A stretch of DNA of 64,000 nt from a virus (Duplodnaviria > Heunggongvirae > Uroviricota > Caudoviricetes). The position numbers were made by a program, and so were the translations under genes. The notes under the pieces were generated by a model. The model was not told where the DNA came from and ran no database searches. It saw only the letters and a program-made list of their open reading frames with translations. Of the stretch, positions 1 to 63,245 are shown piece after piece (position 1 is the stretch's first letter; the number at the start of each line of letters is the position of its first letter). The stretch spans positions 123,136 through 187,135 of IMG/VR virus record IMGVR_UViG_3300037455_000543; one strand, 5' to 3'.

Positions 1-165
1 ACTTATCACGAAGTCAATGAACTTATCCGTAAGGGTGTTCATGGTCCTCATGCTGATAAGATTATCGATATGTATAACAAGAATAAGTTCAAGCTTGAAA
101 TGATTAGAATTCAGCATTTTGATCCTAAGCGTCCAGACTTCTTCTTGGAACATTTTGGTGTATAA
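1..165 (+). CDS. 3' end of a CDS (partial at the window edge), hypothetical protein ...HFDPKRPDFFLEHFGV*
   Basis: Frame 1 is open from base 1 to a TAA at 163-165. No family recognised. Confidence 0.45.
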   Translation, partial: TYHEVNELIRKGVHGPHADKIIDMYNKNKFKLEMIRIQHFDPKRPDFFLEHFGV

Positions 166-174
166 ATAAATTAT

Positions 175-2049: not shown

Positions 2050-2301
2050 ATGATTAATGAAGAATTATTTAAAATCGTATGTCGTTCATATAATGCAGAT
2101 TGTAAGTTCGACAAGGTTAACAAGCAAGACAAATATCCGACAGTTTATACAGTTATAGACTGTAAGCATGACCGTAGAGCTATGCTTTGTCATCTTGACT
2201 GCGCCGTTATTGCTGTTGACGACGCTGGCAAACAATATCCGATGGTTTATGAAGAACAGCTCGTAAATTTCTTTAAAATTAATTATCAGGCAAAACAATA
2301 A
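2050..2301 (+). CDS. hypothetical Cys-rich protein (83 aa)
   Basis: ORF with 6 Cys. Confidence 0.45.
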   Translation: MINEELFKIVCRSYNADCKFDKVNKQDKYPTVYTVIDCKHDRRAMLCHLDCAVIAVDDAGKQYPMVYEEQLVNFFKINYQAKQ

Positions 2302-2314
2302 AAAATTATTAATT

Positions 2315-2782
2315 ATGGACATAAGCAGTAGAGGAAATTATCCGTCTTGTGCACTGAGTAATTTTGCTGCACATGAATTTGAAATTGATGGTGTTAAATG
2401 TGCATCTATGGAAGGGTTTTTACAAAGTTTAAAATGCCCTACTATCGATATGCAGAAATATATTTGTTCATTGATTGGAATTAAAGCTAAGAAAGCTGGT
2501 TATGGAAGAAACTGGCAAAGACGGCAAATTCTTTATTGGCAAGGTCAACAAATTGGTCGTTCTTCAAAAGCATATCAAGACTTACTCGATCGTGCTTATG
2601 ATGCATTGTATGAAAACCAAGGTTTTAAAGCTGCATTAATCGCCTGTGGAAAAGATGCAGTGTTCACGCATAGTATCGGAAAGAATTGTCAAAATGAAAC
2701 AGTATTGACAGCTCGTGAATTTTGCAGTCGTTTAATGAAATTAAAAGATAGAGCGTTTAAAGAAATAAAGGAAATGAAGTAA
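2315..2782 (+). CDS. NADAR-domain protein (YbiA-like N-glycosidase / ADP-ribose processing)
   Basis: LSNFAAHEFEIDGVKCASMEGFLQSLK aligns to E. coli YbiA FSNFAAWPIKVDGKTWPTSEHYFQAQKF. Downstream, NW..LY.NQGFKAALIACGKDAVFTHS parallels the YbiA C-terminal half. Confidence 0.7.
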   Translation: MDISSRGNYPSCALSNFAAHEFEIDGVKCASMEGFLQSLKCPTIDMQKYICSLIGIKAKKAGYGRNWQRRQILYWQGQQIGRSSKAYQDLLDRAYDALYENQGFKAALIACGKDAVFTHSIGKNCQNETVLTAREFCSRLMKLKDRAFKEIKEMK

Positions 2783-3160
2783 ATGAATCCGTTTAAAATT
2801 ATTTCGAATCTTCGTAATGGTTCAATAACTATTAATGGCAATACAGTTAATTCCAATATTATTGGTAATGGCTGTAGTATCAGTATTGATGGTGATAATA
2901 TTGTTATTAATGGTAACAACATTACTGTAAAGGATAAAGTTATCAATATCAATATTACTGGGGATGTCGATGAAATTACGAATTGTCATGATGTCAAGGT
3001 AAAGGGCAATGTTCGTAAAATTTCTGTTGGATCTGGTGATGTCGAAGTTGATGGCGATGTTTCTGGTGATATTCAGACTGGTTCTGGCGATGTCGATGTT
3101 AGTGGTTCTGTTGGTGGAAATATCAGAACTGGTTCTGGTGATGTAAACGTTGGACGATAA
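2783..3160 (+). CDS. beta-helical repeat protein with SGDV repeats (DUF4097/bactofilin-like)
   Basis: Repeated motifs: GSGDVEVDG, TGSGDVDVSG, TGSGDVNVG and IxGNxxxIxG. Confidence 0.45.
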   Translation: MNPFKIISNLRNGSITINGNTVNSNIIGNGCSISIDGDNIVINGNNITVKDKVININITGDVDEITNCHDVKVKGNVRKISVGSGDVEVDGDVSGDIQTGSGDVDVSGSVGGNIRTGSGDVNVGR

Positions 3161-3184
3161 GGATTGATATTTAATATGGGACAG

Positions 3185-3262
3185 CAGGTCCCCACCTGTT
3201 GAAAATCTTTCTCGGATTTTCTAACCATATTATAAATAATACAAGGTCATGGGGATGACCTT
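3185..3262 (+). promoter_or_regulatory. two hairpins with complementary CCCC/GGGG loops in the leader of the HNH-rtcB operon
   Basis: CAGGT-CCCC-ACCTG (3185-3198) and AAGGTCAT-GGGG-ATGACCTT (3243-3262). A TATAAATA sits between them at 3231-3238. Confidence 0.35.
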
Positions 3263-3292
3263 ATAAAAATAAAGGTAAAATAAGGAGAATAT

Positions 3293-4150
3293 ATGAATTA
3301 TAAACATATATATTTGGAAATTATACGTAAAGCTAAAAATGAACAAATACTTGGTAATAGGCCATTAAACATATATTATAGAAGGCGTAATTTTAAAGAT
3401 GAATATTTTGAATTTCATCATATATTACCAAAATCATTATTTCCAAAATTTGAAAAAGTAAAAAAGAATTTAGTTCCATTAACTGCCAAAGAACATTTTA
3501 TATGTCATAAATTGTTATTTAAAATATATCCATGTAAATCTACAGCATATGCTTTATTAAGGCTATGTCGTAAACGTGATGATATGCATCCAATTAAATT
3601 GTCTGCACGTTCATATGAGCAATTAAGAAAAATATTAGCAAATACTTTATCAGATGCGCAAAAAGGTAAAGAACTTTCGAAAGAAACTAGAATAAAAATT
3701 TCTAATGCACTTAAAGAAGGATATAAATCAGGTAAAATTATACCACCGGCTAAAGATAAACCAGTTACTGCTGAAAAAAGAAAACAAATTTCTGAAACAT
3801 TAAAAGAAAGATATAAAAATGGATATAAAGTATGGAATAAAGATAAAAAGTGTCCAAACTTAGCAAAAAGAAAAGAAGATAGTTGGAATTATGGTAAACA
3901 TTGGTATAATAATGGTGAAATTAGCATATTAACTGAAACATGTCCTGAAGGATTTAAAGAAGGACATATTGTTAAAGTTAATGAGGAAACAGAAGAAAAT
4001 AGAAAAATAAAAATTGCAGAAAATAATAAAGGAAGACATTGGTATAATAATGGTAAAATTAATAAATTTTGCTATGAATGTCCAGAAGGTTTTGTAAAAG
4101 GATTTTTAGATCCAAGGTGGATTAAAAAAGATGATGGAAATACAAGGTAA
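3293..4150 (+). CDS. HNH homing endonuclease
   Basis: YFEFHHILPKSLFP...NLVPLTAKEHFICH (HNH motif). C-terminal repeated HWYNNG..CPEGF modules. Strong AGGAG SD. Confidence 0.75.
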   Translation: MNYKHIYLEIIRKAKNEQILGNRPLNIYYRRRNFKDEYFEFHHILPKSLFPKFEKVKKNLVPLTAKEHFICHKLLFKIYPCKSTAYALLRLCRKRDDMHPIKLSARSYEQLRKILANTLSDAQKGKELSKETRIKISNALKEGYKSGKIIPPAKDKPVTAEKRKQISETLKERYKNGYKVWNKDKKCPNLAKRKEDSWNYGKHWYNNGEISILTETCPEGFKEGHIVKVNEETEENRKIKIAENNKGRHWYNNGKINKFCYECPEGFVKGFLDPRWIKKDDGNTR

Positions 4151-5321
4151 ATATGGTAAAGCAACCGTATATACAGATAATATAGATAGCGCTGCATATG
4201 GGCAAATCTTAAATATGACTTGTCAAATATGGGCAAAAGATTCTAATATTAAAATAATGCCAGATTGTCATTGTGGGAAAGACTGTACAGTAGGTACTAC
4301 AATGCTTATTAAAAACAAGGTTGTTCCTAACCTTGTCGGTGTCGATATTGGTTGTGGAATGCTTGTCGCAAAGCTTAAGGACAAGTTTATCGAATTCGGT
4401 AAACTGGATAAGGTTATTAAGGAAAAGATTCCGTCTGGCAAGGAACATAGAAGTAACCGTCACCGTTATGCTAATGAATTTGATGAACAGTTTGAAGAAC
4501 TTATTGCCGATGTTAAACGAGAAGAACTTCTGAGTATTGCTTCACTTGGCGGAGGCAATCACTTCATTGAATGCGATAAGGATGATGAAGGTGCATTTTA
4601 TATTGTTATTCATTCTGGTTCACGCCATTTGGGTGTTGCTACTTGTGAATACTGGCAAAATCTTGCTATTAAGGACTGTGCTAATTTGACAGCCATTCGT
4701 GGTGCTGAAATTGCAAAGTATAAGAACCAAGGAAAGACTGATGCTGAAATTAAGGAACTCATGAAGGATTATGACCATTTCTCTGTTCCGAAAAATCTTT
4801 CCTATCTTACAGGCGAACATATGCAAGGTTATCTGCATGATATGGCTATTGTTCAGCAGTTTGCAGCTTTAAACCGTGCTGCAATGCTTGATGTAATCGT
4901 AAAGGAAATGGGTTTCAAGGTTGTAGAAAAGTTTGAGACTATTCATAATTATATTGACCTTGATAATATGATTCTTAGAAAAGGTAGTATTTCTGCACAG
5001 GCTGGAGAACGTGTAATTATTCCTATGAATATGAGAGACGGTTCTTTAATTTGTGTCGGTAAGGGAAATCCAGAATGGAATTATTCTGCACCTCATGGTG
5101 CTGGTAGATTGATGACCAGAGCAGATGCTAAGAATTCTATTTCCATGAAGGACTATAAGGAAGCAATGAAGGGAATTTTCACTTCTTGCGTTTCTTCTGC
5201 TACTATCGATGAAAGCCCTATGGCATATAAACCTATGGATGAAATCATTAAGAACATTGAACCTACTTGTGAAATTGAAAAAATTATCAAGCCGGTTTAT
5301 AATTTTAAGGCAGCTTTCTAA
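4131..5321 (+). CDS. rtcB: RtcB RNA-splicing ligase (3'-phosphate/5'-OH RNA ligase)
   Basis: RtcB signature motifs: MPDCHCGKDCTVGT, GVDIGCGM, GGGNHFIE, HSGSRHLG and PHGAGR (the nucleotidyl-His motif). Confidence 0.85.
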   Translation: MMEIQGKYGKATVYTDNIDSAAYGQILNMTCQIWAKDSNIKIMPDCHCGKDCTVGTTMLIKNKVVPNLVGVDIGCGMLVAKLKDKFIEFGKLDKVIKEKIPSGKEHRSNRHRYANEFDEQFEELIADVKREELLSIASLGGGNHFIECDKDDEGAFYIVIHSGSRHLGVATCEYWQNLAIKDCANLTAIRGAEIAKYKNQGKTDAEIKELMKDYDHFSVPKNLSYLTGEHMQGYLHDMAIVQQFAALNRAAMLDVIVKEMGFKVVEKFETIHNYIDLDNMILRKGSISAQAGERVIIPMNMRDGSLICVGKGNPEWNYSAPHGAGRLMTRADAKNSISMKDYKEAMKGIFTSCVSSATIDESPMAYKPMDEIIKNIEPTCEIEKIIKPVYNFKAAF

Positions 5322-5833
5322 TGAAACGTATTTTTCCAATGTATAAAGGTGTTAGCTTAGACAAAGCTGGCATGGGTTATTCTTCTGTCCAATCTGCAAA
5401 GCATTATATGGATGAAAAGCCGATTAGAGAGGATTTTGATAAGTCGTTACCAAAAAATTATTGGTATGAGTTTGAATATGTTCATAAGCATAATGGTCGA
5501 GAAATGAGTGATCATCATATCTGTTCTGTAGCAAATTACACCTTCCACGATACCGACTACGAAGAAGAATTCTATATTAAAGACTTGACTGGTAAAGACA
5601 AGGAACTATGGGATAAAGTCTATGCCATTGAAGACAAATATCGTGAACGTGGTTGGGGTTGGGCTGGCGAAAAGGTCCAAAAAGAAATGAACGCATTGCT
5701 TATTAAATTGGACAAACGTGGCTGGTACCATACATTGTTTGAAGATACAAAGGATTACTGGAAAAAGTATCGTGCTTATAAAAAAGCAAATGTAGAATAT
5801 ATTGAAAAGTCTGTTGAAATAAAGGTAGATTAA
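5321..5833 (+). CDS. hypothetical protein (170 aa)
   Basis: ORF with an ATGA overlap to rtcB. Confidence 0.55.
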   Translation: MKRIFPMYKGVSLDKAGMGYSSVQSAKHYMDEKPIREDFDKSLPKNYWYEFEYVHKHNGREMSDHHICSVANYTFHDTDYEEEFYIKDLTGKDKELWDKVYAIEDKYRERGWGWAGEKVQKEMNALLIKLDKRGWYHTLFEDTKDYWKKYRAYKKANVEYIEKSVEIKVD

Positions 5834-6051
5834 TGGCTGAAGCAGAATTTACAGAAGAAGAAATCGACTTTGCAATGGAAATGATACGCGATTTAATTCC
5901 GTATGATACACCGAATTATGCCAAAAAATTAAGAGAAATGGCAATTGGATGTCTACGAACAGAGCGTGATCCTGATTTTATTGCAATGTGTGAAGAACAT
6001 GACAGAATGCTAGAAAATGGTGAATTGGATGATAATTTAAATTTTGGTTAA
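5833..6051 (+). CDS. hypothetical protein (72 aa, acidic)
   Basis: ORF, translationally coupled. Confidence 0.45.
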   Translation: MAEAEFTEEEIDFAMEMIRDLIPYDTPNYAKKLREMAIGCLRTERDPDFIAMCEEHDRMLENGELDDNLNFG

Positions 6052-6054
6052 TTA

Positions 6055-6306
6055 ATGATTGAAGAAACATACAAATTTAAATGGAAAACATTTGAAGAAG
6101 AAATGCCAGAATCATATAAAATGATTTTGGCTCGTTCTCCTAAAAAACAAATGAACGATATACAGTGGTATTTTTTAACCAGTGATAAGAAACAACTCCA
6201 TCTTCATGATTTAAAATGTGAGTATTATATATCAAGAATTAAGAAATGGCTTTGGTGTTATCCAGAAGATATTGAAAAAATAGAGGAAAATAATGAGTCG
6301 ATTTAA
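6055..6306 (+). CDS. hypothetical protein (83 aa)
   Basis: ORF. Confidence 0.45.
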   Translation: MIEETYKFKWKTFEEEMPESYKMILARSPKKQMNDIQWYFLTSDKKQLHLHDLKCEYYISRIKKWLWCYPEDIEKIEENNESI

Positions 6307-41494: not shown

Positions 41495-41760
41495 GGAAGA
41501 CATTCAGAAGTCTTGTTCCTCGGAGCGAAGCTCAACCCAATGATGTTGTCGGTAGAGGGCAAGCCAGCGAAAGTCGAGGTGTGGCTTTCTAACACTGAAC
41601 AGGTACTAACTGTTGCTGAACCACCACTGACGTATTATCTAACGAATAATACACGTAGCCGCCATTGGCACGGTATGATATAGTCGGAGTACAGGATGAC
41701 CAGCCCGTAAGCATATCGATAAGTCCCGAGAGTTGACGCCAGAAGTAGATCTGGATTTTT
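41495..41760 (+). ncRNA. candidate structured ncRNA (about 265 nt, GC-rich island), family unknown
   Basis: GC is roughly 50% against a 33% background. Flanked by a promoter box and a terminator CCAGA-AGTAG-ATCTGG plus ATTTTT (41739-41760). Multiple local stems (AAGAC/GTCTT, GAGC-GAA-GCTC, AGCC..GGCT, GCCA-TGGC). The only ORF is TTG-initiated with 63 codons. Confidence 0.4.
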
Positions 41761-46872: not shown

Positions 46873-48036
46873 ATGGCAAATAAATTGCTCGCTAAAATGA
46901 TGAAAGAAAAGGCTTTCGCCGACATGCTCAGAACCGAACAAAAACCGATTGAATGGTTGAGCACAAACTGTATTTCAGTAAACCTGTTGCTCTCAGGTAA
47001 AATTAAGGGCGGTATCAAGAAAGGTTCAATCAGTATGATTGCAGCCGGTTCCGGTTGGGGTAAATCTATGATTGGCTACGCAGTTCTTAAGTCTGCACAA
47101 GATTCTGGTATGAACTGCTTTATTGTCGATACTGAAAACTCTGTTAACTACGAACTTCTTACTAAACTCGGAATTAACATGAAAGAAGTCGGTGTATTTG
47201 GACCGACAAACCGAATTCCAAAAATCAAACAGTTCATTACAAAGCTCATGAGTGGTCTTACTCTTGATGAAGCACGTAATACTTTCCTTCTTTTCGACTC
47301 CTGGGGCCCGATTATCGAAGAACAGGTCATTGAAAAGGCTGAACAGGCATCAAGTGCTGTAAACATGTCTTCTGCAAAGTTTAAGAACGAACTTGCAAAC
47401 CTTCTCTTGAGTGCTGGTTTTACTACCCTCGTTATGAACCACGTTTATGCTTCTCTCGAAATGTATGGTGATCCGTATAAGATTCCAGGTGGTATGAGAA
47501 TCATATTCAATGCTGAAAACATTATGCTTGGTTCTTCTACTAAGAAGGAAAAGGACAAGGATAAGAACATTCTCGGTAAGGTCATTACTGCTGGTGTTGC
47601 TAAGGGCCGTTCTGCTAAGGAATTCGTAAAGACTCAATATCTTATTCTCCATGCTGGTGGTATTTCTCCTTATTATGGTCTATTAGATGAAGCTATTGAT
47701 TGTGGTATCGTCTATAAACCAAAACCGGGATATTATGCTCGAATCGGTTATGACGTCCAGGTTGATAAGGAAACTGGTGAACTTGGTAAGCCAGAAAGAG
47801 TATGGAAAGAATCTGAACTTTACTGTGCTAAATTCTGGATTCCACTTTATAAGGATGAAACATTTAGACACTATGTTGAAGCTAAGTTCGCATTCGAAGA
47901 CCAGGTATTGATTAACGCTTCTGAAGACATTATGAAGTTGATGGAAAAGGAAGATGCTGATTTAAGTGAAAACACAGGTATCGATCCGAATGTTGCGGCT
48001 TCAGGTGAAGACGAAGATTACGACGAAGAAGATTAA
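46873..48036 (+). CDS. uvsX: UvsX/RecA-family recombinase
   Basis: GISPYYGLLDEAIDCGIVYKPKPGYYAR aligns to T4 UvsX GIDPYSGLLDMALELGFVVKPKNGWYAR. MNHVYAS aligns to INHTYE and FWIPLY to FWGPLF. Acidic C-terminal tail. Confidence 0.85.
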   Translation: MANKLLAKMMKEKAFADMLRTEQKPIEWLSTNCISVNLLLSGKIKGGIKKGSISMIAAGSGWGKSMIGYAVLKSAQDSGMNCFIVDTENSVNYELLTKLGINMKEVGVFGPTNRIPKIKQFITKLMSGLTLDEARNTFLLFDSWGPIIEEQVIEKAEQASSAVNMSSAKFKNELANLLLSAGFTTLVMNHVYASLEMYGDPYKIPGGMRIIFNAENIMLGSSTKKEKDKDKNILGKVITAGVAKGRSAKEFVKTQYLILHAGGISPYYGLLDEAIDCGIVYKPKPGYYARIGYDVQVDKETGELGKPERVWKESELYCAKFWIPLYKDETFRHYVEAKFAFEDQVLINASEDIMKLMEKEDADLSENTGIDPNVAASGEDEDYDEED

Positions 48037-48040
48037 TTTA

Positions 48041-48070
48041 AAAACCGGGTTAAAAACCCGGTTATTTTTT
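48041..48070 (+). terminator. rho-independent terminator
   Basis: AACCGGGTT-AAAA-ACCCGGTT followed by ATTTTTT. Confidence 0.5.
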
Positions 48071-48099
48071 AAAACAAAAAATAACTTACAAAAAGTTTC

Positions 48100-48107
48100 T
48101 ATATTTG
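48100..48107 (+). promoter_or_regulatory. -7 box TATATTTG
   Basis: GTTTCTATATTTG lies 7 nt before the ATG at 48115. Confidence 0.4.
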
Positions 48108-48114
48108 AGGTAAT

Positions 48115-48651
48115 ATGAAAGAAACACTAATTGTAAACCTATATGCTGGCCCTGGTTCAGGTAAATCAACGTGCGCCGCTTATGTATTTTCAAAATTAAA
48201 AATGGCTGGTGTAAATTCAGAATATGTTACAGAATTTGCAAAAGATAAAACTTGGGAAGAAAATCAGAAAGTTTTAAATTGTCAGTTCTATATATCTGGT
48301 AAACAGGCATTCCGACTTGCTAGAGTATATGGCAAAGTTGATGTTGCCGTTACTGATAGTCCGATTATATTGGGTTCATTCTATACCGATGAAGAATATA
48401 TCAAGATTGCATGTGTTGGTGAAGACAGTAAATATAAAAATCAGCTCAACTATTTTATAGAACGTAAAAAGGCATATAATCCTTCCGGCAGAAATCAAAC
48501 TGAAGAGGAAGCCAAAGAAATTGACATAAAAGTTAGAGCCATGTTAGATAAGCTTCAAAAACATTACGTGTCAGTTGAAGGAACACTAGAAGGTTATGAC
48601 TGGATAGTAAACGATATTTTGAATCATCTACAAAAACAAAATTCAAAATAA
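48115..48651 (+). CDS. P-loop nucleotide or polynucleotide kinase-like protein (AAA_33/PNK-kinase-like)
   Basis: Walker A YAGPGSGKST closely resembles T4 Pnk GCPGSGKST. 178 aa with no phosphatase domain. Confidence 0.45.
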   Translation: MKETLIVNLYAGPGSGKSTCAAYVFSKLKMAGVNSEYVTEFAKDKTWEENQKVLNCQFYISGKQAFRLARVYGKVDVAVTDSPIILGSFYTDEEYIKIACVGEDSKYKNQLNYFIERKKAYNPSGRNQTEEEAKEIDIKVRAMLDKLQKHYVSVEGTLEGYDWIVNDILNHLQKQNSK

Positions 48652-48659
48652 AACACATT

Positions 48660-48684
48660 AAGTCCCTCGCCTGGGACTTTTTTT
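48660..48684 (+). terminator. rho-independent terminator
   Basis: AGTCCC-TCGCCT-GGGACT followed by TTTTTTT. Confidence 0.5.
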
Positions 48685-48685
48685 C

Positions 48686-48693
48686 TATATTTG
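48686..48693 (+). promoter_or_regulatory. -7 box TATATTTG
   Basis: TTTTTCTATATTTG, 53 nt before the ATG at 48746. Confidence 0.35.
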
Positions 48694-48745
48694 CTTACAA
48701 ATAGTTACGGTTATCCTGTTTAATAAATAAGGATAAAGGTAAAAA

Positions 48746-50104
48746 ATGACAGATAATGAATTTGAACAAGTTGTAATTAAGACTATATATGCTAATCCAT
48801 CTGCATCAAGTAAAATTGTTCCAGAATTAGATCCGAATTGGTTTATTCAGGTTGATCATAAGTATATTGTTGATGCTATTGCAAGTTATAATGGTAAATA
48901 TTCTACTTTGCCGAATGCTATAGAAATTAAGAGACTGCTTTCTGATGAAAGAAGTATTGAAGAATTCGAAAAATGTATGGCAATTCCGGATAGTGATGTT
49001 AATACGCCATTTATTCTTGATGAGATTCAGACATTCGTAAGAAAAAGACTTGGTAGACAAGTATGTATGGCATATAATGAATATTGCTCTACAGGCAAGG
49101 CAAAAATAAGCTTTGCTGATGAAATGGCATATGCACAGTCTTTTACATTCGACGATAAAATTGGTTTTGCATTTTGTGAAGAACCAGAAAAAGTATATAA
49201 CGGAATTATTACTAATGAAAAGGTAATTCCATTAGGCTGTGCAACGCTTGATGAGATGATTCATGGTGGTGCACATGAAAAGAGTATGACATTGGTTATG
49301 GCACCGACTAACGTTGGTAAAACATTATTCCTTTGTTCATTTACGACTTCTGCAATTTTAAACGGTAAGAAAGTATTATATATTACTTTCGAAGACTCTG
49401 AAATTAAAATTGGTCAGAGAATTACACAGAACTTATTTGATATTACTCAGACACAATTATATTCTTTGTCCAAAGAGAATTATGGTAAGCTTTGGAAGAA
49501 ATCAATGTCTCAGATTGGACATAACAAGCTTATCATTAAAGAATATTCTGCTGGTTCTGTAAATGCTCTTATGTTACGTGCTCTTATTAAGGAACTTAAA
49601 GAGAAAAAAGACTTTGTTCCTGATATGATAGCAGTTGACTATATTGGATGTATGATTCCTAATGGTCGTTATAATTCTGATATGAATGATAACTCTAAGC
49701 TTCGTTCTGTTTGTGAAGAAGTAAGAGCAATCGGTATGGACATGGGCATTCCTATCATATCTGCTGCACAGGCTAACAGAGGTGGTTATGGTAAAGCTGA
49801 AATTGGTCTTGATGATGCTGCTGACTCTTTTGGTCAGACAATGAAAGCAGACGTTATTTTTGGTGTTACTCAGACACCAGACCTCAAGTCTGCGAATATG
49901 TATACGGTCAAGTTGCTTAAGACCAGATATGGTCAACCTCCTGCACCGATGGTTACAATCGGTGTCGATATTGAAAAACAAAGAATATATGATTTGAAGA
50001 CATTCAGTAATATTCAACCGACTGGAACAAATTACAATACTGAAGACGAAACGGTTATCGAATCTACTATTAAAGAACCGAACGTCAATAACTTTACATT
50101 CTAA
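48746..50104 (+). CDS. replicative DNA helicase, DnaB/gp41-like
   Basis: Walker A MAPTNVGKTLFL (T4 gp41 GAPNVGKS), Walker B IAVDYIG, arginine-finger region AAQANRGG. 452 aa. Confidence 0.8.
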   Translation: MTDNEFEQVVIKTIYANPSASSKIVPELDPNWFIQVDHKYIVDAIASYNGKYSTLPNAIEIKRLLSDERSIEEFEKCMAIPDSDVNTPFILDEIQTFVRKRLGRQVCMAYNEYCSTGKAKISFADEMAYAQSFTFDDKIGFAFCEEPEKVYNGIITNEKVIPLGCATLDEMIHGGAHEKSMTLVMAPTNVGKTLFLCSFTTSAILNGKKVLYITFEDSEIKIGQRITQNLFDITQTQLYSLSKENYGKLWKKSMSQIGHNKLIIKEYSAGSVNALMLRALIKELKEKKDFVPDMIAVDYIGCMIPNGRYNSDMNDNSKLRSVCEEVRAIGMDMGIPIISAAQANRGGYGKAEIGLDDAADSFGQTMKADVIFGVTQTPDLKSANMYTVKLLKTRYGQPPAPMVTIGVDIEKQRIYDLKTFSNIQPTGTNYNTEDETVIESTIKEPNVNNFTF

Positions 50105-60771: not shown

Positions 60772-62244
60772 TTATCCGTTTATAAACTTTGGAATGTTAA
60801 ACTTACTACCAATAAATGTTGTTTCTACTTTCTTTCCGCCTTCGGTCGAAGAAACATTATAAACAAAATCTGTTCCCATGATTTTCTGTTCTTCTAATGT
60901 AGGGCTAAATGTACCTTCTTCAAAATAAGTAGTATAATAGGCTGAATAAGGTTTACCATATTCATCTACCATTTCCTTATATCCAAATGTTACAGTGTCA
61001 TCTGTAAATGTGTTGATACCAGACATCGACTGATAGAACTTCTGTGTAAGATATTCACCAGAATATGCAGTAACCATAATCTTATCTACATATTTGTCCT
61101 GTGCCGCATCATACACAAATTCAGGAATAGGAGTATATACGCCATTTTTTATTTCATACTTTTCATAATAATTATTTCTTTCATTTGCTGGCAAAGCACT
61201 AGGAATTAATGGCGCAGCACTTGAATAGAATCTGGACGATACAGAACTTAATTGCATTGCATCAGCATCATAAGTAGTCAATTCATCAGTCTTTTCATAA
61301 TTATAAACTGTGAAATGTGTTAATGGATTTCCAGATTCATCATAGGTATGAGTAGTCGTAGGATTTCCTACAAGTCTATAAACGTTACCGACTTTGGTAT
61401 TATAAATCTGACCAAAATCATATCTATGATCTAAGCTACCATCCTTATTTCCGAATGTAGCTGCATGATAAAGAAGTCTATCATTACCGGTAGATACAAA
61501 AGTATTAATACATTCGATAATACGTGCATCTTTAATGGGTTTATATAAAACCGCTTCCATAGTAAACGAGAAAGATACTGTAATTTTTCTCCAGTCTTCT
61601 TCACCCATGCTATCGGAATCGATTGTCCAGTTTATAGATTCAAGTTTTAACTTGATGCTTCTACGCTTATTGAAAAACCAAAATTCTTTTACGTCAAAGA
61701 ATGCTGCTGGTTGGAATCTTACTGCAACTTGTTCTACAATCTGTTGTGCGTCAGACATTTTCTCACAGTTAGCTTCCATTGATACTGTAAAATTATATGG
61801 AACTGGTTGGACATCAGACCAGAACTGTTCTTGCATCGCGCCTCTGATACCAGCATTTTCTAAGTCAGTTTCATAAAATGCTCTTTGTTCATAGATACCT
61901 TTTGCACGTTCAGTTGCGAACTGCATGGAATCAAGCCTATAAGTCAAGTTAGGCAAAGAAATATAATATTTCTTACCAGACTCTTCTTCAGTTCTAAAGT
62001 CATGAGACTTAGCTCTTGGACCGAACTTGATAGGCACATTGATTGTCTTTACAGGTTCACCATTCTTATTAAAGCGAACAACGCTTAAGTCATTAAAGAA
62101 ATTACCGAACCCGATAAACAATGAACGCATTGTATCTGCGAAATAATAATTATTAGGATAACCGTAATTCGGTGCGTTATCTATAGTGCCACGCCAATAA
62201 CCATTTACTGACGGATCATAATCTGTTTGTTTGTAATTTGCCAT
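60772..62244 (-). CDS. hypothetical virion structural protein (490 aa)
   Basis: ORF with a TATAAATA box immediately upstream (62249-62256, minus). Confidence 0.4.
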   Translation of the reverse strand: MANYKQTDYDPSVNGYWRGTIDNAPNYGYPNNYYFADTMRSLFIGFGNFFNDLSVVRFNKNGEPVKTINVPIKFGPRAKSHDFRTEEESGKKYYISLPNLTYRLDSMQFATERAKGIYEQRAFYETDLENAGIRGAMQEQFWSDVQPVPYNFTVSMEANCEKMSDAQQIVEQVAVRFQPAAFFDVKEFWFFNKRRSIKLKLESINWTIDSDSMGEEDWRKITVSFSFTMEAVLYKPIKDARIIECINTFVSTGNDRLLYHAATFGNKDGSLDHRYDFGQIYNTKVGNVYRLVGNPTTTHTYDESGNPLTHFTVYNYEKTDELTTYDADAMQLSSVSSRFYSSAAPLIPSALPANERNNYYEKYEIKNGVYTPIPEFVYDAAQDKYVDKIMVTAYSGEYLTQKFYQSMSGINTFTDDTVTFGYKEMVDEYGKPYSAYYTTYFEEGTFSPTLEEQKIMGTDFVYNVSSTEGGKKVETTFIGSKFNIPKFING

Positions 62245-62248
62245 ACAT

Positions 62249-62285
62249 TATTTATAATATAAAAAGAAAATCCAAATTATAAATA
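62249..62285. promoter_or_regulatory. divergent late promoters: TATAAATA on the minus strand (62249-62256) and the plus strand (62278-62285)
   Basis: The minus strand reads TATAAATAATGTATGGCAAAT. The plus-strand TATAAATATATAG is 39 nt before the terminase ATG. Confidence 0.4.
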
Positions 62286-62324: not shown

Positions 62325-63245
62325 ATGTGGATGAAAACCGCCGAGCTTCGCGGCCATAACGAAGAAGTTGAAATTACAAAAGAGCAAATGGATGAATATA
62401 TCAAATGCTCACGTGATATATTTCATTTCGCTGATTATTTTTATATCTTGACTGATGATGGTGAAGCACCTATCAAACTAAGAGAATACCAAGAGCGTAT
62501 TGTAAAAATGCTTATCGGTAAGTATTATGACAAAGAGGGTGTTATTCGTAATAACAGAATATGTATGATGGGTCGTCAGTGTGGTAAAACTACGATTGCT
62601 ACACTTTATATTCTATGGTATGCATTATTTAATAAAGATAAAACTATTGCGGTACTTGCTAACAAGGAAGACCAAGCAAAAGAAATTATGCTCAGAATAC
62701 GTTCTGCTATTCTTAAACTTCCTTTATGGATGCAGCAAGGCATTAATCCTGACCGAGGTGGCTGGTCAAAAGAAAGTATAGGTTTCGATAACGGAACTAA
62801 GATATTCTGCGCCGCTTCTGGTTCATCTGCTATTCGTGGTAAGTCCGTTGACCTTATGCTTGTGGACGAATTTGCGTTCTTGCCGGAAGAAGATGCTAAG
62901 GACTTTATTAAGTCTGTGTTCCCGACTCAATCTGCTAGAAAAGATGCTATGATGATTCTTATCTCTACTCCTCACGGTATGAATGAGTTCTATAACATCT
63001 GGACTAAGGCTGCTGCTGGTATTTCCAGTTACGTTGCAGCAAAAATTCAATGGTGGGAAATTCCAGGAAGAGATGAAGCATGGAAGAAACGTATTATTCG
63101 TGACTTCGGTATTCAGATGTTCCAACAAGAATATGCCTGTCTTTTAGGCGATGAAAAGATAACCGTAAGGTCAGAAGAAGGCATAGAATTGACCGATACG
63201 ATAGAAAATCTGTATGAACTTTATATGGACGGATTCCTCCGTTAG
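62325..63245 (+). CDS. terminase large subunit, ATPase domain only (T4 gp17-like)
   Basis: LREYQERIVKML (Q/adenine motif) and MMGRQCGKTT Walker A (T4 SRQLGKTT). TIAVLANKEDQAKEIMLRIRSAILKLP aligns to T4 AVGILAHKGSMSAEVLDRTKQAIELLP. LMLVDEFAF is Walker B, and ISTPHGMNEFYNIWT aligns to TTTPNGLNHFYDIWT. The ORF ends at 306 aa, near the ATPase/nuclease boundary. Confidence 0.8.
   Translation: MWMKTAELRGHNEEVEITKEQMDEYIKCSRDIFHFADYFYILTDDGEAPIKLREYQERIVKMLIGKYYDKEGVIRNNRICMMGRQCGKTTIATLYILWYALFNKDKTIAVLANKEDQAKEIMLRIRSAILKLPLWMQQGINPDRGGWSKESIGFDNGTKIFCAASGSSAIRGKSVDLMLVDEFAFLPEEDAKDFIKSVFPTQSARKDAMMILISTPHGMNEFYNIWTKAAAGISSYVAAKIQWWEIPGRDEAWKKRIIRDFGIQMFQQEYACLLGDEKITVRSEEGIELTDTIENLYELYMDGFLR

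What the first reader, a model, noticed from the sequence alone, without database searches (positions are those of the whole stretch)
3185..5321. RNA-repair module: RtcB ligase co-transcribed with an HNH endonuclease
RtcB seals the 2',3'-cyclic-phosphate and 5'-OH ends produced by anticodon nucleases (PrrC, RloC and similar) and other RNA-targeting defences. A phage RtcB is therefore a plausible counter-defence, functionally analogous to T4 Pnk plus Rnl1. The HNH gene overlaps rtcB by 20 nt and shares its leader. That leader carries a TATAAATA box and two hairpins whose loops (CCCC and GGGG) are complementary and could form a kissing interaction. Together with the tmRNA and the P-loop kinase at 48115, the phage appears to invest in RNA and translation damage control.
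Basis: partly seen in the sequence, partly recalled or inferred. Interest (0 to 1): 0.6.

Follow-up and report, generated by a model that had tools for sequence, protein, structure and literature searches.

The report
Homing endonuclease cassette beside phage RtcB
The phage has an intact RtcB RNA ligase, but the "HNH" gene in front of it is a selfish homing-endonuclease cassette that most close relatives lack, and its leader is a conserved RNA fold, absent from Rfam, whose two hairpin loops do pair.

Summary
The reading of it as one RNA-repair module is only partly right.

**RtcB (4131-5321).** It is a real RtcB with every catalytic residue intact. Phage RtcBs are common: 693 GenBank phage records have one.

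**The "HNH" ORF (3293-4150).** It is a Mob-like free-standing homing endonuclease.
- It and the whole leader (about 3161-4130) are missing from 18 of 24 close rtcB loci. In three of those the upstream gene's stop overlaps the rtcB start (TAATG).
- Other relatives carry a different, Vsr-like endonuclease at the same site, or only a decayed stub of it.
- The first ~150-180 nt of rtcB travelled with the cassette, which is a co-conversion tract.

So the link to rtcB is a matter of insertion site, not function.

**The leader.** It belongs to a structured RNA family of 30 instances, with no Rfam match. The fold is a three-way junction, a T4-type late promoter box (TATAAATA), then a hairpin.
- The loops of hairpin 1 and hairpin 2 are exact 6-nt complements in 28 of 30 instances, across 15 different sequences.
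- A third loop pairs with the ribosome-binding or start region.
- The family precedes HNH, GIY-YIG and Vsr-like endonuclease genes.

The likely role is to block endonuclease translation on read-through transcripts, a block that late transcripts escape.

The parts
2783..3160 (+). Upstream gene p125 (125 aa, repetitive GSGDV motifs, phrog_3163, function unknown). In HEG-less relatives its stop codon overlaps the rtcB start (TAATG).
3160..3171 (+). Left junction of the cassette. AGGATTGATATT matches the first 12 nt of rtcB in L010-type alleles (ATGATTGATATT) at 11 of 12 positions, with the ATG destroyed. Homology to HEG-less L005 ends at 3174.
   Evidence: direct reading
3174..3230 (+). Three-way junction of the leader RNA. 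P1 is 3174-3179/3225-3230. Hairpin 1 is 3183-3188/3195-3200 with loop TCCCCA (3189-3194). P3 is 3201-3207/3215-3221 with loop UUUCUCG (3208-3214). Conserved junction bases are GAC and UAA.
3231..3238 (+). TATAAATA, the T4 late-promoter consensus. It ends 4 nt before the base of hairpin 2.
3243..3262 (+). Hairpin 2. Stem 3243-3249/3256-3262. Loop TGGGGA (3250-3255) is the exact reverse complement of the hairpin 1 loop (kissing pair).
3263..3295 (+). A-rich linker (UAAAAAUAAAGGUAAAA), Shine-Dalgarno GGAG (3284-3287) and ATG (3293). GAGAA (3285-3289) is complementary to UUCUC (3209-3213) in the P3 loop.
3293..4150 (+). Free-standing HNH homing endonuclease, Mob-like, 285 aa. N-terminal HNH motif (H42 H43 ... 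N59 ... H68 ... H72), NUMOD3-like repeats and two C-terminal HWYNNG repeats. GC is 23-28% against 36-39% in rtcB.
4131..4290 (+). Co-conversion tract in the 5' end of rtcB. At 29 of 31 informative sites it matches the HEG-linked alleles (L002, L001). The switch to the L003/L005 type falls between about 4275 and 4410.
4131..5321 (+). rtcB, an RNA 3'-phosphate/2',3'-cyclic-phosphate ligase, 396 aa. Catalytic residues D45, H47, D72, C75, N143, H144, H161, H272, H322 (GMP-His) and R326 are all conserved.

Best explanation
Two unrelated things lie side by side.

**1. rtcB (4131-5321).** It encodes an intact RtcB-family RNA ligase that is a stable gene of this clade of large T4-like rumen phages. 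In many relatives it sits directly downstream of arrays of 11-16 tRNA genes. By inference it reseals phage or host tRNA, or other RNA, cut to 2',3'-cyclic-phosphate/5'-OH ends.

**2. The segment from about 3161 to 4130.** This is a selfish free-standing homing-endonuclease cassette. It holds a Mob-like HNH endonuclease gene with its own structured leader and its own late promoter. It was copied into the junction between p125 and rtcB together with the first ~150-180 nt of rtcB, a co-conversion tract. The 3' end of the cassette supplies a new rtcB start, so rtcB stays expressed. The endonuclease is next to rtcB because its target lies there, not because it acts in RNA repair.

**Leader mechanism (inferred, about 0.55 confidence).**
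- On transcripts reading through from upstream, a three-way junction forms.
- Its hairpin 1 loop kisses the hairpin 2 loop through 6 base pairs.
- Its P3 loop pairs with the Shine-Dalgarno/start region, blocking endonuclease translation.
- Late transcripts start at the base of hairpin 2, just downstream of TATAAATA. They lack the junction and can be translated.

This follows the T4 I-TevI / Aeh1 mobE logic, but is built from long-range pseudoknots instead of a local hairpin.
For: **RtcB**
- Pfam PF01139 at 195 bits; phrog_1075 E 1e-129.
- Every P. horikoshii active-site residue aligns and is invariant across 13 phage homologues of 43-94% identity, except His47, which one homologue in the set lacks.
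- tRNA arrays lie next to rtcB in L006, L008, L010, L011, L016, L017 and L020.

**Mobility of the cassette**
- Of 24 close rtcB loci (at least 79% aa identity), 18 have no endonuclease directly upstream. Four, three of them distinct (window, L002, L094), carry this HNH. Two carry a Vsr-like endonuclease and one carries only its last ~50 codons.
- Empty and filled sites are matched pairs. L005 matches the window up to 3174 and again from 4131. L010/L013 match L016/L017, with p107 99-100% identical and the insertion after nt 11 of rtcB.
- L002 and L094 carry the same leader plus HNH behind different upstream genes.
- GC drops to 23-28% across the cassette.
- rtcB is mosaic. The first ~180 nt are 88-94% identical to HNH-linked alleles but 64-74% to L003-L005. 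The rest is 90-100% identical to L003-L005.
- The nearest GenBank relatives are T-even homing endonucleases, including RB3 MobE.

**Leader**
- 30 instances; 98.1% of cells paired; covariation score 0.654 against 0.167 in shuffles (0 of 500 reach it) and 0.04-0.07 for slid controls.
- The kissing helix has 6 of 6 pairs with changes on both sides.
- P3 loop to start-region complementarity is -6.46 against -4.02 +/- 0.37 kcal/mol in permutations (0 of 20000), and -1.58 against an in-ORF control.
- G-U pairs are strand-specific, which points to RNA on the + strand.

**Promoter**
- TATAAATA occurs 25 times against 13.5 expected. 17 of the 25 lie in the 6% of the window that is non-coding, most of them 4-54 nt upstream of a same-strand gene start. 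These include the tail-sheath-stabiliser and terminase genes.
- The box ends 2-7 nt before hairpin 2 in 17-18 of 30 leaders.

**Precedent.** PMC2988022 and PMC2677866.
Against: - No experiment supports any step. Endonuclease activity and its target are unknown.
- No Pfam HNH model reaches threshold for the window protein.
- In the window itself the P3 loop to Shine-Dalgarno pairing is only 5 bp (UUCUC/GAGAA, -5.6 kcal/mol). Non-cognate leaders do almost as well for this particular sequence.
- About 12 of 30 leaders have no recognisable TATAAATA-like box between the junction and hairpin 2, and some have only a few nt there. Promoter bypass therefore cannot be the universal way the block is relieved.
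- L001 has the HEG-linked rtcB 5' end but no endonuclease. This needs a loss event or a resistant allele to explain.
- The transcription start position rests on T4 knowledge, not on data for this phage.
Confidence: 0.8

Rival explanations
1. HNH and RtcB form one co-evolved RNA-repair or counter-defence module, with the nuclease contributing to the repair or defence function. For example, it might trim RNA ends or attack host or competitor nucleic acid while RtcB repairs phage RNA.
For: - The ORFs overlap, share a strand and have no + strand terminator-like site between them.
- HNH-RNA ligase fusions exist in some jumbo phages, in the Rnl2 family (PMC7824862).
Against: - 18 of 24 close relatives have rtcB without any endonuclease directly upstream.
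- The same slot is filled by an unrelated Vsr-like nuclease in L016/L017 and by its decayed stub in L022.
- The same leader precedes HNH, GIY-YIG and Vsr-like genes at sites unrelated to rtcB, such as inside tRNA arrays.
- The cassette shows a compositional anomaly and a co-conversion tract.
Confidence: 0.04
2. The leader is not a passive RBS-masking device. It is a regulated RNA: an operator for a trans-acting protein (for example an SSB/gp32-like or RegA-like translational repressor that nucleates on the pseudoknot and spreads over the A-rich start region), a ligand-sensing switch, or a self-cleaving or processing element that separates the endonuclease mRNA from the upstream message.
For: - Junction nucleotides (GGACAG, UUG, CUAAC) and the A-rich tail UAAAG(G/U)NAAAA are nearly invariant across 30 instances, while the helices covary.
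- 12 of 30 leaders lack an internal promoter box, so another means of relief is needed.
- The likeness to the T4 gene 32 operator (a pseudoknot followed by an A/U-rich start region) comes from my memory only. I did not test it.
Against: - No Rfam ribozyme or riboswitch model matches, even at E up to 10.
- The covarying P3 loop to start-region pairing is explained most simply by direct occlusion.
- No candidate ligand or protein was identified.
Confidence: 0.25
3. The HNH ORF is no longer an active homing endonuclease. It is a decaying or domesticated remnant, kept only because its 3' end and promoter now drive rtcB.
For: - A T-to-G change removes the TGA stop used in L002 and L094, extending the window ORF by 4 codons (285 against 281 aa).
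- Decay happens at this site: the L022 stub and the short ORFs after the leaders in L196 and L211.
- Embedded promoters are known to favour retention of T4 endonuclease genes (PMC2988022).
Against: - The ORF is full length.
- The HNH catalytic motif is intact and invariant.
- It is 91-99% identical in protein to copies in two other genomic contexts.
- The sharp co-conversion tract indicates recent transfer.
Confidence: 0.12

Closest known systems
RtcB RNA ligase (Pfam PF01139; P. horikoshii and E. coli RtcB) and phage RtcB (phrog_1075), proposed to repair tRNA cut by RNase effectors
   Same: Full-length domain match. All metal-binding residues and the GMP-histidine are conserved. It is linked to tRNA arrays in relatives. 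693 GenBank phage records encode a homologue (PMC7824862).
   Different: It is short (396 aa) and only ~50% identical to the nearest isolate-phage proteins. It scores far below the NCBIfam bacterial RtcB cut-offs (115.7 bits against 407; 92 against 271.8). No RtcA or archease partner was looked for. Activity is untested.
T-even free-standing HNH homing endonucleases (Mob family, e.g. MobE of RB3, T4 and Aeh1)
   Same: N-terminal HNH motif followed by NUMOD-type DNA-binding repeats. Inserted between two conserved genes. Sporadic among relatives. AT-rich. Co-conversion of flanking sequence. 28-39% identity to nrdA/nrdB-associated endonucleases (PMC2988022, PMC2790892).
   Different: The target locus is p125/rtcB rather than nrd genes. 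T4 mobE is described as a promoter-less cassette (PMC2988022), whereas this one carries its own late promoter box. The C-terminal HWYNNG repeats are uncharacterised. Cleavage is not demonstrated.
T4-type translational control of homing endonucleases: a late promoter set inside an RBS-sequestering hairpin (I-TevI, I-TevII, I-TevIII, segB, Aeh1 mobE)
   Same: A TATAAATA box just upstream of the endonuclease gene. An upstream RNA segment complementary to the ribosome-binding or start region. The promoter is placed so that late transcripts would lack the inhibitory segment (PMC2988022).
   Different: The inhibitory element is not a local hairpin. It is a three-way junction about 80 nt upstream, whose P3 loop pairs with the start region and whose other loop forms a 6-bp kissing complex with a hairpin at the 5' end of the late transcript. 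The fold is conserved across at least three endonuclease families, and some members have no internal promoter.
Hairpin plus TATAAATA 5' UTRs of free-standing Vsr-like and GIY-YIG endonucleases in 'fractured genes' (Dassa et al. 2009, PMC2677866)
   Same: Free-standing endonuclease genes with upstream hairpins, a TATAAATA box and two conserved complementary sequence motifs. The endonuclease 3' end overlaps the start of the downstream gene. Vsr-like and GIY-YIG families are both present.
   Different: That paper describes simple RNAfold hairpins. It reports no three-way junction, loop-loop pairing or loop to start-region pairing. I could not see its figures, so I cannot say whether its motifs are the same sequences as hairpin 1 here. 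No split inteins are involved in this window.

Membership tests
RtcB RNA ligase (PF01139) | Full-length match to the family model above the curated threshold | tested here: met
   195.3 bits against a cut-off of 27, residues 39-393 on model positions 14-425 of 426. phrog_1075 E 1e-129.
RtcB RNA ligase (PF01139) | Metal ligands and nucleotidyl-histidine (P. horikoshii D95, C98, H203, H234, H329, H404; also N202 and R408) | tested here: met
   The window has D72, C75, H144, H161, H272, H322, N143 and R326. All are aligned to P. horikoshii RtcB and invariant in 13 phage homologues.
RtcB RNA ligase (PF01139) | GTP/Mn2+-dependent sealing of 2',3'-cyclic-phosphate or 3'-phosphate ends to 5'-OH ends | not testable with these tools
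   Needs a biochemical assay.
Bacterial RtcB equivalogs (NCBIfam NF007153, TIGR03073) | Score above the curated equivalog cut-off | tested here: not met
   115.7 against 407 bits, and 92 against 271.8 bits. It is a phage subfamily, not one of the curated bacterial equivalogs.
HNH (beta-beta-alpha-metal) nuclease | Match to a curated HNH domain model | tested here: not met
   No Pfam HNH family matches the window protein even at E up to 10. The homologue in L006 scores 20.8 against 22 bits on HNH_4.
HNH (beta-beta-alpha-metal) nuclease | Conserved His ... Asn ... His catalytic motif | tested here: met
   E40, H42, H43, P46, N59 and H72 are invariant and H68 nearly so in 18 homologues. The profile hits to the catalytic region are HNH domains in the PDB (group II intron maturase, McrA, Cas8f-HNH, Cas9, IscB, pyocin AP41; E 0.007-0.4) apart from one insignificant hit at E 6. 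phrog_12434 'HNH endonuclease' E 4.5e-13.
Free-standing homing endonuclease gene | Presence/absence polymorphism at one site among close relatives, with precise junctions | tested here: met
   18 of 24 close loci are empty. Matched empty/filled pairs are L005 against the window and L010/L013 against L016/L017.
Free-standing homing endonuclease gene | Co-conversion of flanking markers | tested here: met
   At 29 of 31 informative sites in 4142-4273 the window follows the HEG-linked alleles. From about 4298 onward 29 of 36 follow the empty-site alleles.
Free-standing homing endonuclease gene | Site-specific cleavage of the endonuclease-lacking allele and resistance of its own allele | not testable with these tools
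   Needs cleavage assays or phage crosses.
T4-type late-promoter / RBS-sequestration control of endonuclease genes | Late promoter consensus immediately upstream of the endonuclease gene, functional in this phage | tested here: met
   TATAAATA at 3231-3238. The box is enriched (25 against 13.5 expected; 0 of 100 shuffles reach 25). 17 of 25 copies lie in the 6% of the window that is non-coding, including ahead of the terminase and tail-sheath-stabiliser genes. Promoter activity itself was not measured.
T4-type late-promoter / RBS-sequestration control of endonuclease genes | A local hairpin that contains the ribosome-binding site | tested here: not met
   The Shine-Dalgarno (3284-3287) is unpaired in the minimum-free-energy fold. 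The sequestering partner is the P3 loop about 75 nt upstream, through a long-range pairing.
Any Rfam 15 RNA family | Covariance-model match to the leader | tested here: not met
   The only hit is preQ1-II at 16.4 bits (gathering score 47), E 4.5. Nothing lies in this region at gathering thresholds.

The most novel reading that the evidence does not exclude
The leader is a widespread RNA class, not yet in Rfam: a portable double-pseudoknot "gate". It has a three-way junction whose one loop kisses a downstream hairpin and whose other loop masks the start site. It has been exchanged among homing endonucleases of at least three nuclease families (HNH, GIY-YIG, Vsr-like). In clades without an internal promoter it would be opened by a trans-acting signal (a protein, a ligand or RNA processing). 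That would make it a true regulatory switch timing selfish-nuclease expression, not just a by-product of promoter placement.
Probability: 0.3. Interest if true: 0.7.

Novelty: new variant of a known kind. Interest (0 to 1): 0.5.

Why it matters
- **Annotation.** Adjacency and ORF overlap in phage genomes can reflect where a selfish element inserts, not shared function. The RtcB "module" reading should not be propagated.
- **RNA biology.** The leader has unusually clean comparative support. All 6 positions of the kissing helix show changes on both sides, with 15 different loop sequences, and it has a second long-range pairing to the start site. It gives a defined, mutable system for studying how homing endonucleases are kept silent until late in infection. 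This extends the I-TevI/mobE hairpin paradigm to a modular element shared across nuclease families and environments.
- **Evolution of the locus.** The site shows the full homing cycle in one gene neighbourhood: empty site, invasion by two different nucleases, co-conversion, and decay.

Tried and rejected
- **Megablast of 2300-6300 against GenBank phages.** No match. Relatives had to come from IMG/VR and metagenomes.
- **phmmer of the HNH protein against the PDB.** Nothing. A profile of 18 homologues was needed.
- **Pfam and NCBIfam for the HNH ORF.** No HNH family.
- **One collection scan wasted.** I miscounted the hairpin 1 loop as N6 instead of N5, and it returned 0 hits. The corrected pattern worked.
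- **Rfam at permissive thresholds.** No ribozyme or riboswitch family covers the leader.
- **Hairpin 1 or P3 as an intrinsic terminator for p125.** Considered and rejected. No + strand terminator-like site is called there and the U-run lies inside the P3 stem.
- **A long alternative helix between the hairpin 1 5' arm and the hairpin 2 3' arm.** This is possible in the window because both stems contain AGGT/ACCT. It was rejected because the stems are unrelated in other family members (for example L020 and L196). Only the loops stay complementary.
- **A DNA-level reading of the hairpins.** Rejected because invariant G-U pairs would be C-A mismatches on the other strand.
- **Papers.** Supplementary files of PMC2677866 and the Gibb & Edgell 2009 paper were not available. 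One paper search failed on syntax.
- **Structure prediction of the HNH protein.** Not run; the motif and profile evidence was judged sufficient.
Full report
**1. Observation**

The window has two overlapping + strand ORFs: 3293-4150 (285 aa) and 4131-5321 (396 aa). The overlap is 20 nt.

The 132-nt region upstream of the first ORF holds:
- TATAAATA at 3231-3238;
- hairpin 1, stem 3183-3188/3195-3200, loop TCCCCA;
- hairpin 2, stem 3243-3249/3256-3262, loop TGGGGA.

The tmRNA at 175-528 is real. The description is therefore accurate.

**2. RtcB**

- The 396-aa protein matches Pfam RtcB over its whole length (195 bits, cut-off 27) and phrog_1075 "tRNA splicing ligase" (E 1e-129).
- Direct and profile alignments to P. 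horikoshii RtcB place D45/H47, D72, C75, N143/H144, H161, H272, H322 and R326 opposite D65/H67, D95, C98, N202/H203, H234, H329, H404 (the GMP-histidine) and R408.
- These residues are invariant in 13 phage homologues of 43-94% identity, except H47, which is only nearly invariant. The active site is intact.
- 693 GenBank phage records encode a homologue, the best about 50% identical, in Bacillus herelleviruses.
- RtcB in jumbo phages has already been read as tRNA repair against RNase effectors (PMC7824862).
- In many close relatives rtcB lies just downstream of arrays of 11-16 tRNA genes, which fits that role. In the window the only such gene is the tmRNA.
- The protein scores far below the NCBIfam bacterial equivalog cut-offs. 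It belongs to a phage subfamily.

**3. The "HNH" gene is a mobile homing endonuclease**

*Family assignment.*
- No Pfam HNH model matches.
- PHROG families "homing endonuclease" (phrog_655, E 4e-36) and "HNH endonuclease" (phrog_12434) do match.
- 18 homologues share an invariant E-x-H-H-x-x-P ... N ... H-F-x-x-H motif.
- A profile of them hits HNH domains in the PDB, weakly (E 0.007-0.4), plus the I-TevI DNA-binding domain.
- The nearest GenBank relatives are T-even endonucleases between nrdA and nrdB, including RB3 MobE.

*Evidence for mobility.*
- IMG/VR holds 22 loci with RtcB at least 79% identical.
- In L003, L004 and L005 the homologue of the upstream gene p125 ends in TAATG, which is the rtcB start. 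There is no leader and no HNH.
- Homology between the window and L005 stops at 3174 and resumes at 4131.
- Across 24 close loci, 18 have no endonuclease directly upstream of rtcB. Three distinct genomes carry this HNH (window/L093, L002, L094), each behind a different upstream gene. L016 and L017 carry an unrelated 248-aa endonuclease at the same position, with an I-TevI-type zinc finger, NUMOD3 and a Vsr-like DUF559 domain. L022 keeps only its last ~50 codons.
- L010/L013 are the exact empty-site counterparts of L016/L017. The insertion lies after nt 11 of rtcB.
- Window bases 3160-3171 (AGGATTGATATT) are an 11-of-12 remnant of that rtcB start.
- GC falls to 23-28% over the cassette, against 36-39% in rtcB.

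*Co-conversion.*
- rtcB in the window is mosaic. Its first ~180 nt are 88-94% identical to the HNH-linked alleles and 64-74% to L003-L005. The rest is 90-100% identical to L003-L005.
- At informative sites, 29 of 31 in 4142-4273 are of the HEG-linked type. From about 4298 onward 29 of 36 are of the empty-site type. This is a co-conversion tract.

The leader is part of the insertion.

**4. The leader is a conserved structured RNA**

*Finding more copies.*
- The same leader precedes the unrelated endonuclease in L016/L017. Diverged copies precede other endonuclease genes next to tRNA genes in L006 and L020.
- Pattern scans of viral and genome collections, followed by a covariance model (R1), gave 30 instances.
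- Rfam has no match.

*The fold.*
- P1 closes a three-way junction that holds hairpin 1 and hairpin P3.
- A variable linker follows, then hairpin 2, then a conserved A-rich tail and the start site.

*Covariation.*
- 98.1% of cells form pairs.
- The covariation score is 0.654, against 0.167 in shuffles (0 of 500 reach it) and 0.04-0.07 for slid controls.
- The loop-loop helix was not part of the model. All six of its pairs show changes on both sides, and 98.9% of cells are paired.
- The two loops are exact 6-nt reverse complements in 28 of 30 instances, with 15 different sequences. Examples are TCCCCA/TGGGGA, TTCCAG/CTGGAA, TTGCTG/CAGCAA, TTACAG/CTGTAA and CGGCAA/TTGCCG.
- An invariant G-U pair shows the structure is RNA on the + strand.

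*A second long-range pairing.*
- The P3 loop is complementary to the Shine-Dalgarno or start-codon region.
- Examples: UUGAACCU/AGGUUCAA in L196; UUCUCCAA/UUGGAGAA in L203; UACUCCA/UGGAGUA in L218; UGAUUA/UAAUCA in L219 against UAAUUA/UAAUUA in L020.
- Cognate pairs average -6.46 kcal/mol, against -4.02 +/- 0.37 for permuted pairs (0 of 20000) and -1.58 against a control inside the ORF (Wilcoxon p 2e-5).
- In the window this pairing is only UUCUC/GAGAA.

*Downstream genes.* The genes after the leaders belong to HNH, GIY-YIG, Vsr-like/DUF559 and other endonuclease families.

**5. Promoter**

- TATAAATA is enriched in the window: 25 copies against 13.5 expected.
- 17 of the 25 copies lie in the 6% of the window that is non-coding, most of them 4-54 nt upstream of a same-strand start. 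These include large unannotated genes and a divergent pair of boxes facing the tail-sheath-stabiliser and terminase genes.
- The phage also encodes T4-type UvsX and gp30.3.
- In 17-18 of 30 leaders a TATAAATA-like box ends 2-7 nt before the base of hairpin 2.
- From T4 knowledge, the box spans about -13 to -6. Late transcripts would then begin at the base of hairpin 2 and lack the three-way junction.

**6. Mechanism**

*Shown by comparison:* the cassette is mobile; the RNA helices and both long-range pairings exist.

*Inferred:*
- On read-through transcripts the junction masks the endonuclease start site, and the kissing complex holds it in place.
- Late transcripts escape this block.

This is the logic established for I-TevI, I-TevII, I-TevIII, segB and Aeh1 mobE (PMC2988022). 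Here it is realised with pseudoknots instead of a local hairpin.

Dassa et al. 2009 (PMC2677866) reported hairpins, TATAAATA and conserved complementary motifs upstream of free-standing Vsr-like and GIY-YIG endonucleases, with the endonuclease 3' end overlapping the downstream gene. Those may be the same family seen at lower resolution.

About 12 leaders have no such box in the linker. A second way of opening the structure is therefore likely, and a protein- or ligand-controlled switch is not excluded.

rtcB is probably co-transcribed with the endonuclease. The ORFs overlap and no + strand terminator-like site lies between them. In HEG-less relatives, rtcB is instead translationally coupled to the upstream gene.

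**7. Verdict**

- RtcB is an ordinary, intact phage RtcB.
- The HNH is an ordinary kind of selfish element.
- Their pairing is not a functional module.
- The leader is the novel part: a well-supported new variant of homing-endonuclease translational control that is not in Rfam.

Noticed in passing
window 161-168 and 175-528: A TATAAATA box ends 6 nt before the first base of the phage tmRNA gene (tag peptide ANTYAMAA). The tmRNA may therefore be transcribed from a T4-type late promoter.
   Followed up: partly
window 41626-41731: A full-length match to the Rfam cow-rumen-2 RNA (RF02947, 99.3 bits against a gathering score of 66), a motif of unknown function. It points to a rumen origin for this phage.
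   Followed up: no
window 62249-62285: Back-to-back TATAAATA boxes on opposite strands, in the short divergent gap between a tail-sheath-stabiliser gene (60772-62244, -) and a terminase large-subunit gene (62325-63245, +).
   Followed up: partly
window 46873-50104: The "P-loop kinase" at 48115-48651 is an AAA_28, thymidylate-kinase-like protein between a T4-type UvsX recombinase and a DnaB-like helicase. This is a replication/recombination cluster, not RNA repair.
   Followed up: yes
L022 5795-6004; L016 4235-4981: L022 keeps only the last ~50 codons of the Vsr-like endonuclease that is intact in L016/L017, and has no leader. This looks like a decay stage of the homing cycle at the rtcB site.
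   Followed up: partly
L016 4978-6168, L022 6001-7191 (RtcB N-terminus): RtcB alleles linked to the Vsr-like endonuclease have a strongly diverged first ~50 residues. They read MPDVSPG/MPDISPG where the window has MPDCHCG, which loses the histidine aligned with P. horikoshii H67. Whether this affects activity or marks endonuclease-resistant target variants is unknown.
   Followed up: no
L006 2364-3461; L020 4296-5267: Leader-plus-endonuclease cassettes sit inside phage tRNA arrays. In L006 an HNH gene lies between two tRNA-Tyr genes. In L020 a zinc-finger endonuclease starts right after tRNA-Ser.
   Followed up: partly
L218, L219, L220 (MAG contigs): Contigs binned as Rickettsiales, Elusimicrobia and Methanobrevibacter MAGs carry the leader-endonuclease cassettes. 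L220 has two, near-identical to the rumen-phage ones. These contigs are probably phage DNA mis-binned into the MAGs.
   Followed up: no
L001 5405-7191: L001 has the HEG-linked version of the rtcB 5' end but no endonuclease. Two small unrelated ORFs precede rtcB. It is either a loss of the cassette or a resistant allele without it.
   Followed up: partly
window 2783-3160: The upstream gene encodes a 125-aa protein made largely of G-[SD]-G-D-[VI] repeats (phrog_3163, function unknown). In HEG-less relatives it is translationally coupled to rtcB.
   Followed up: no
leaders in L205, L208, L213, L214, L217: Leaders without a TATAAATA-like box share an (A/C)ACTA(T/A)T-like element in the linker before hairpin 2. 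This may be a different promoter type in other phage groups.
   Followed up: no
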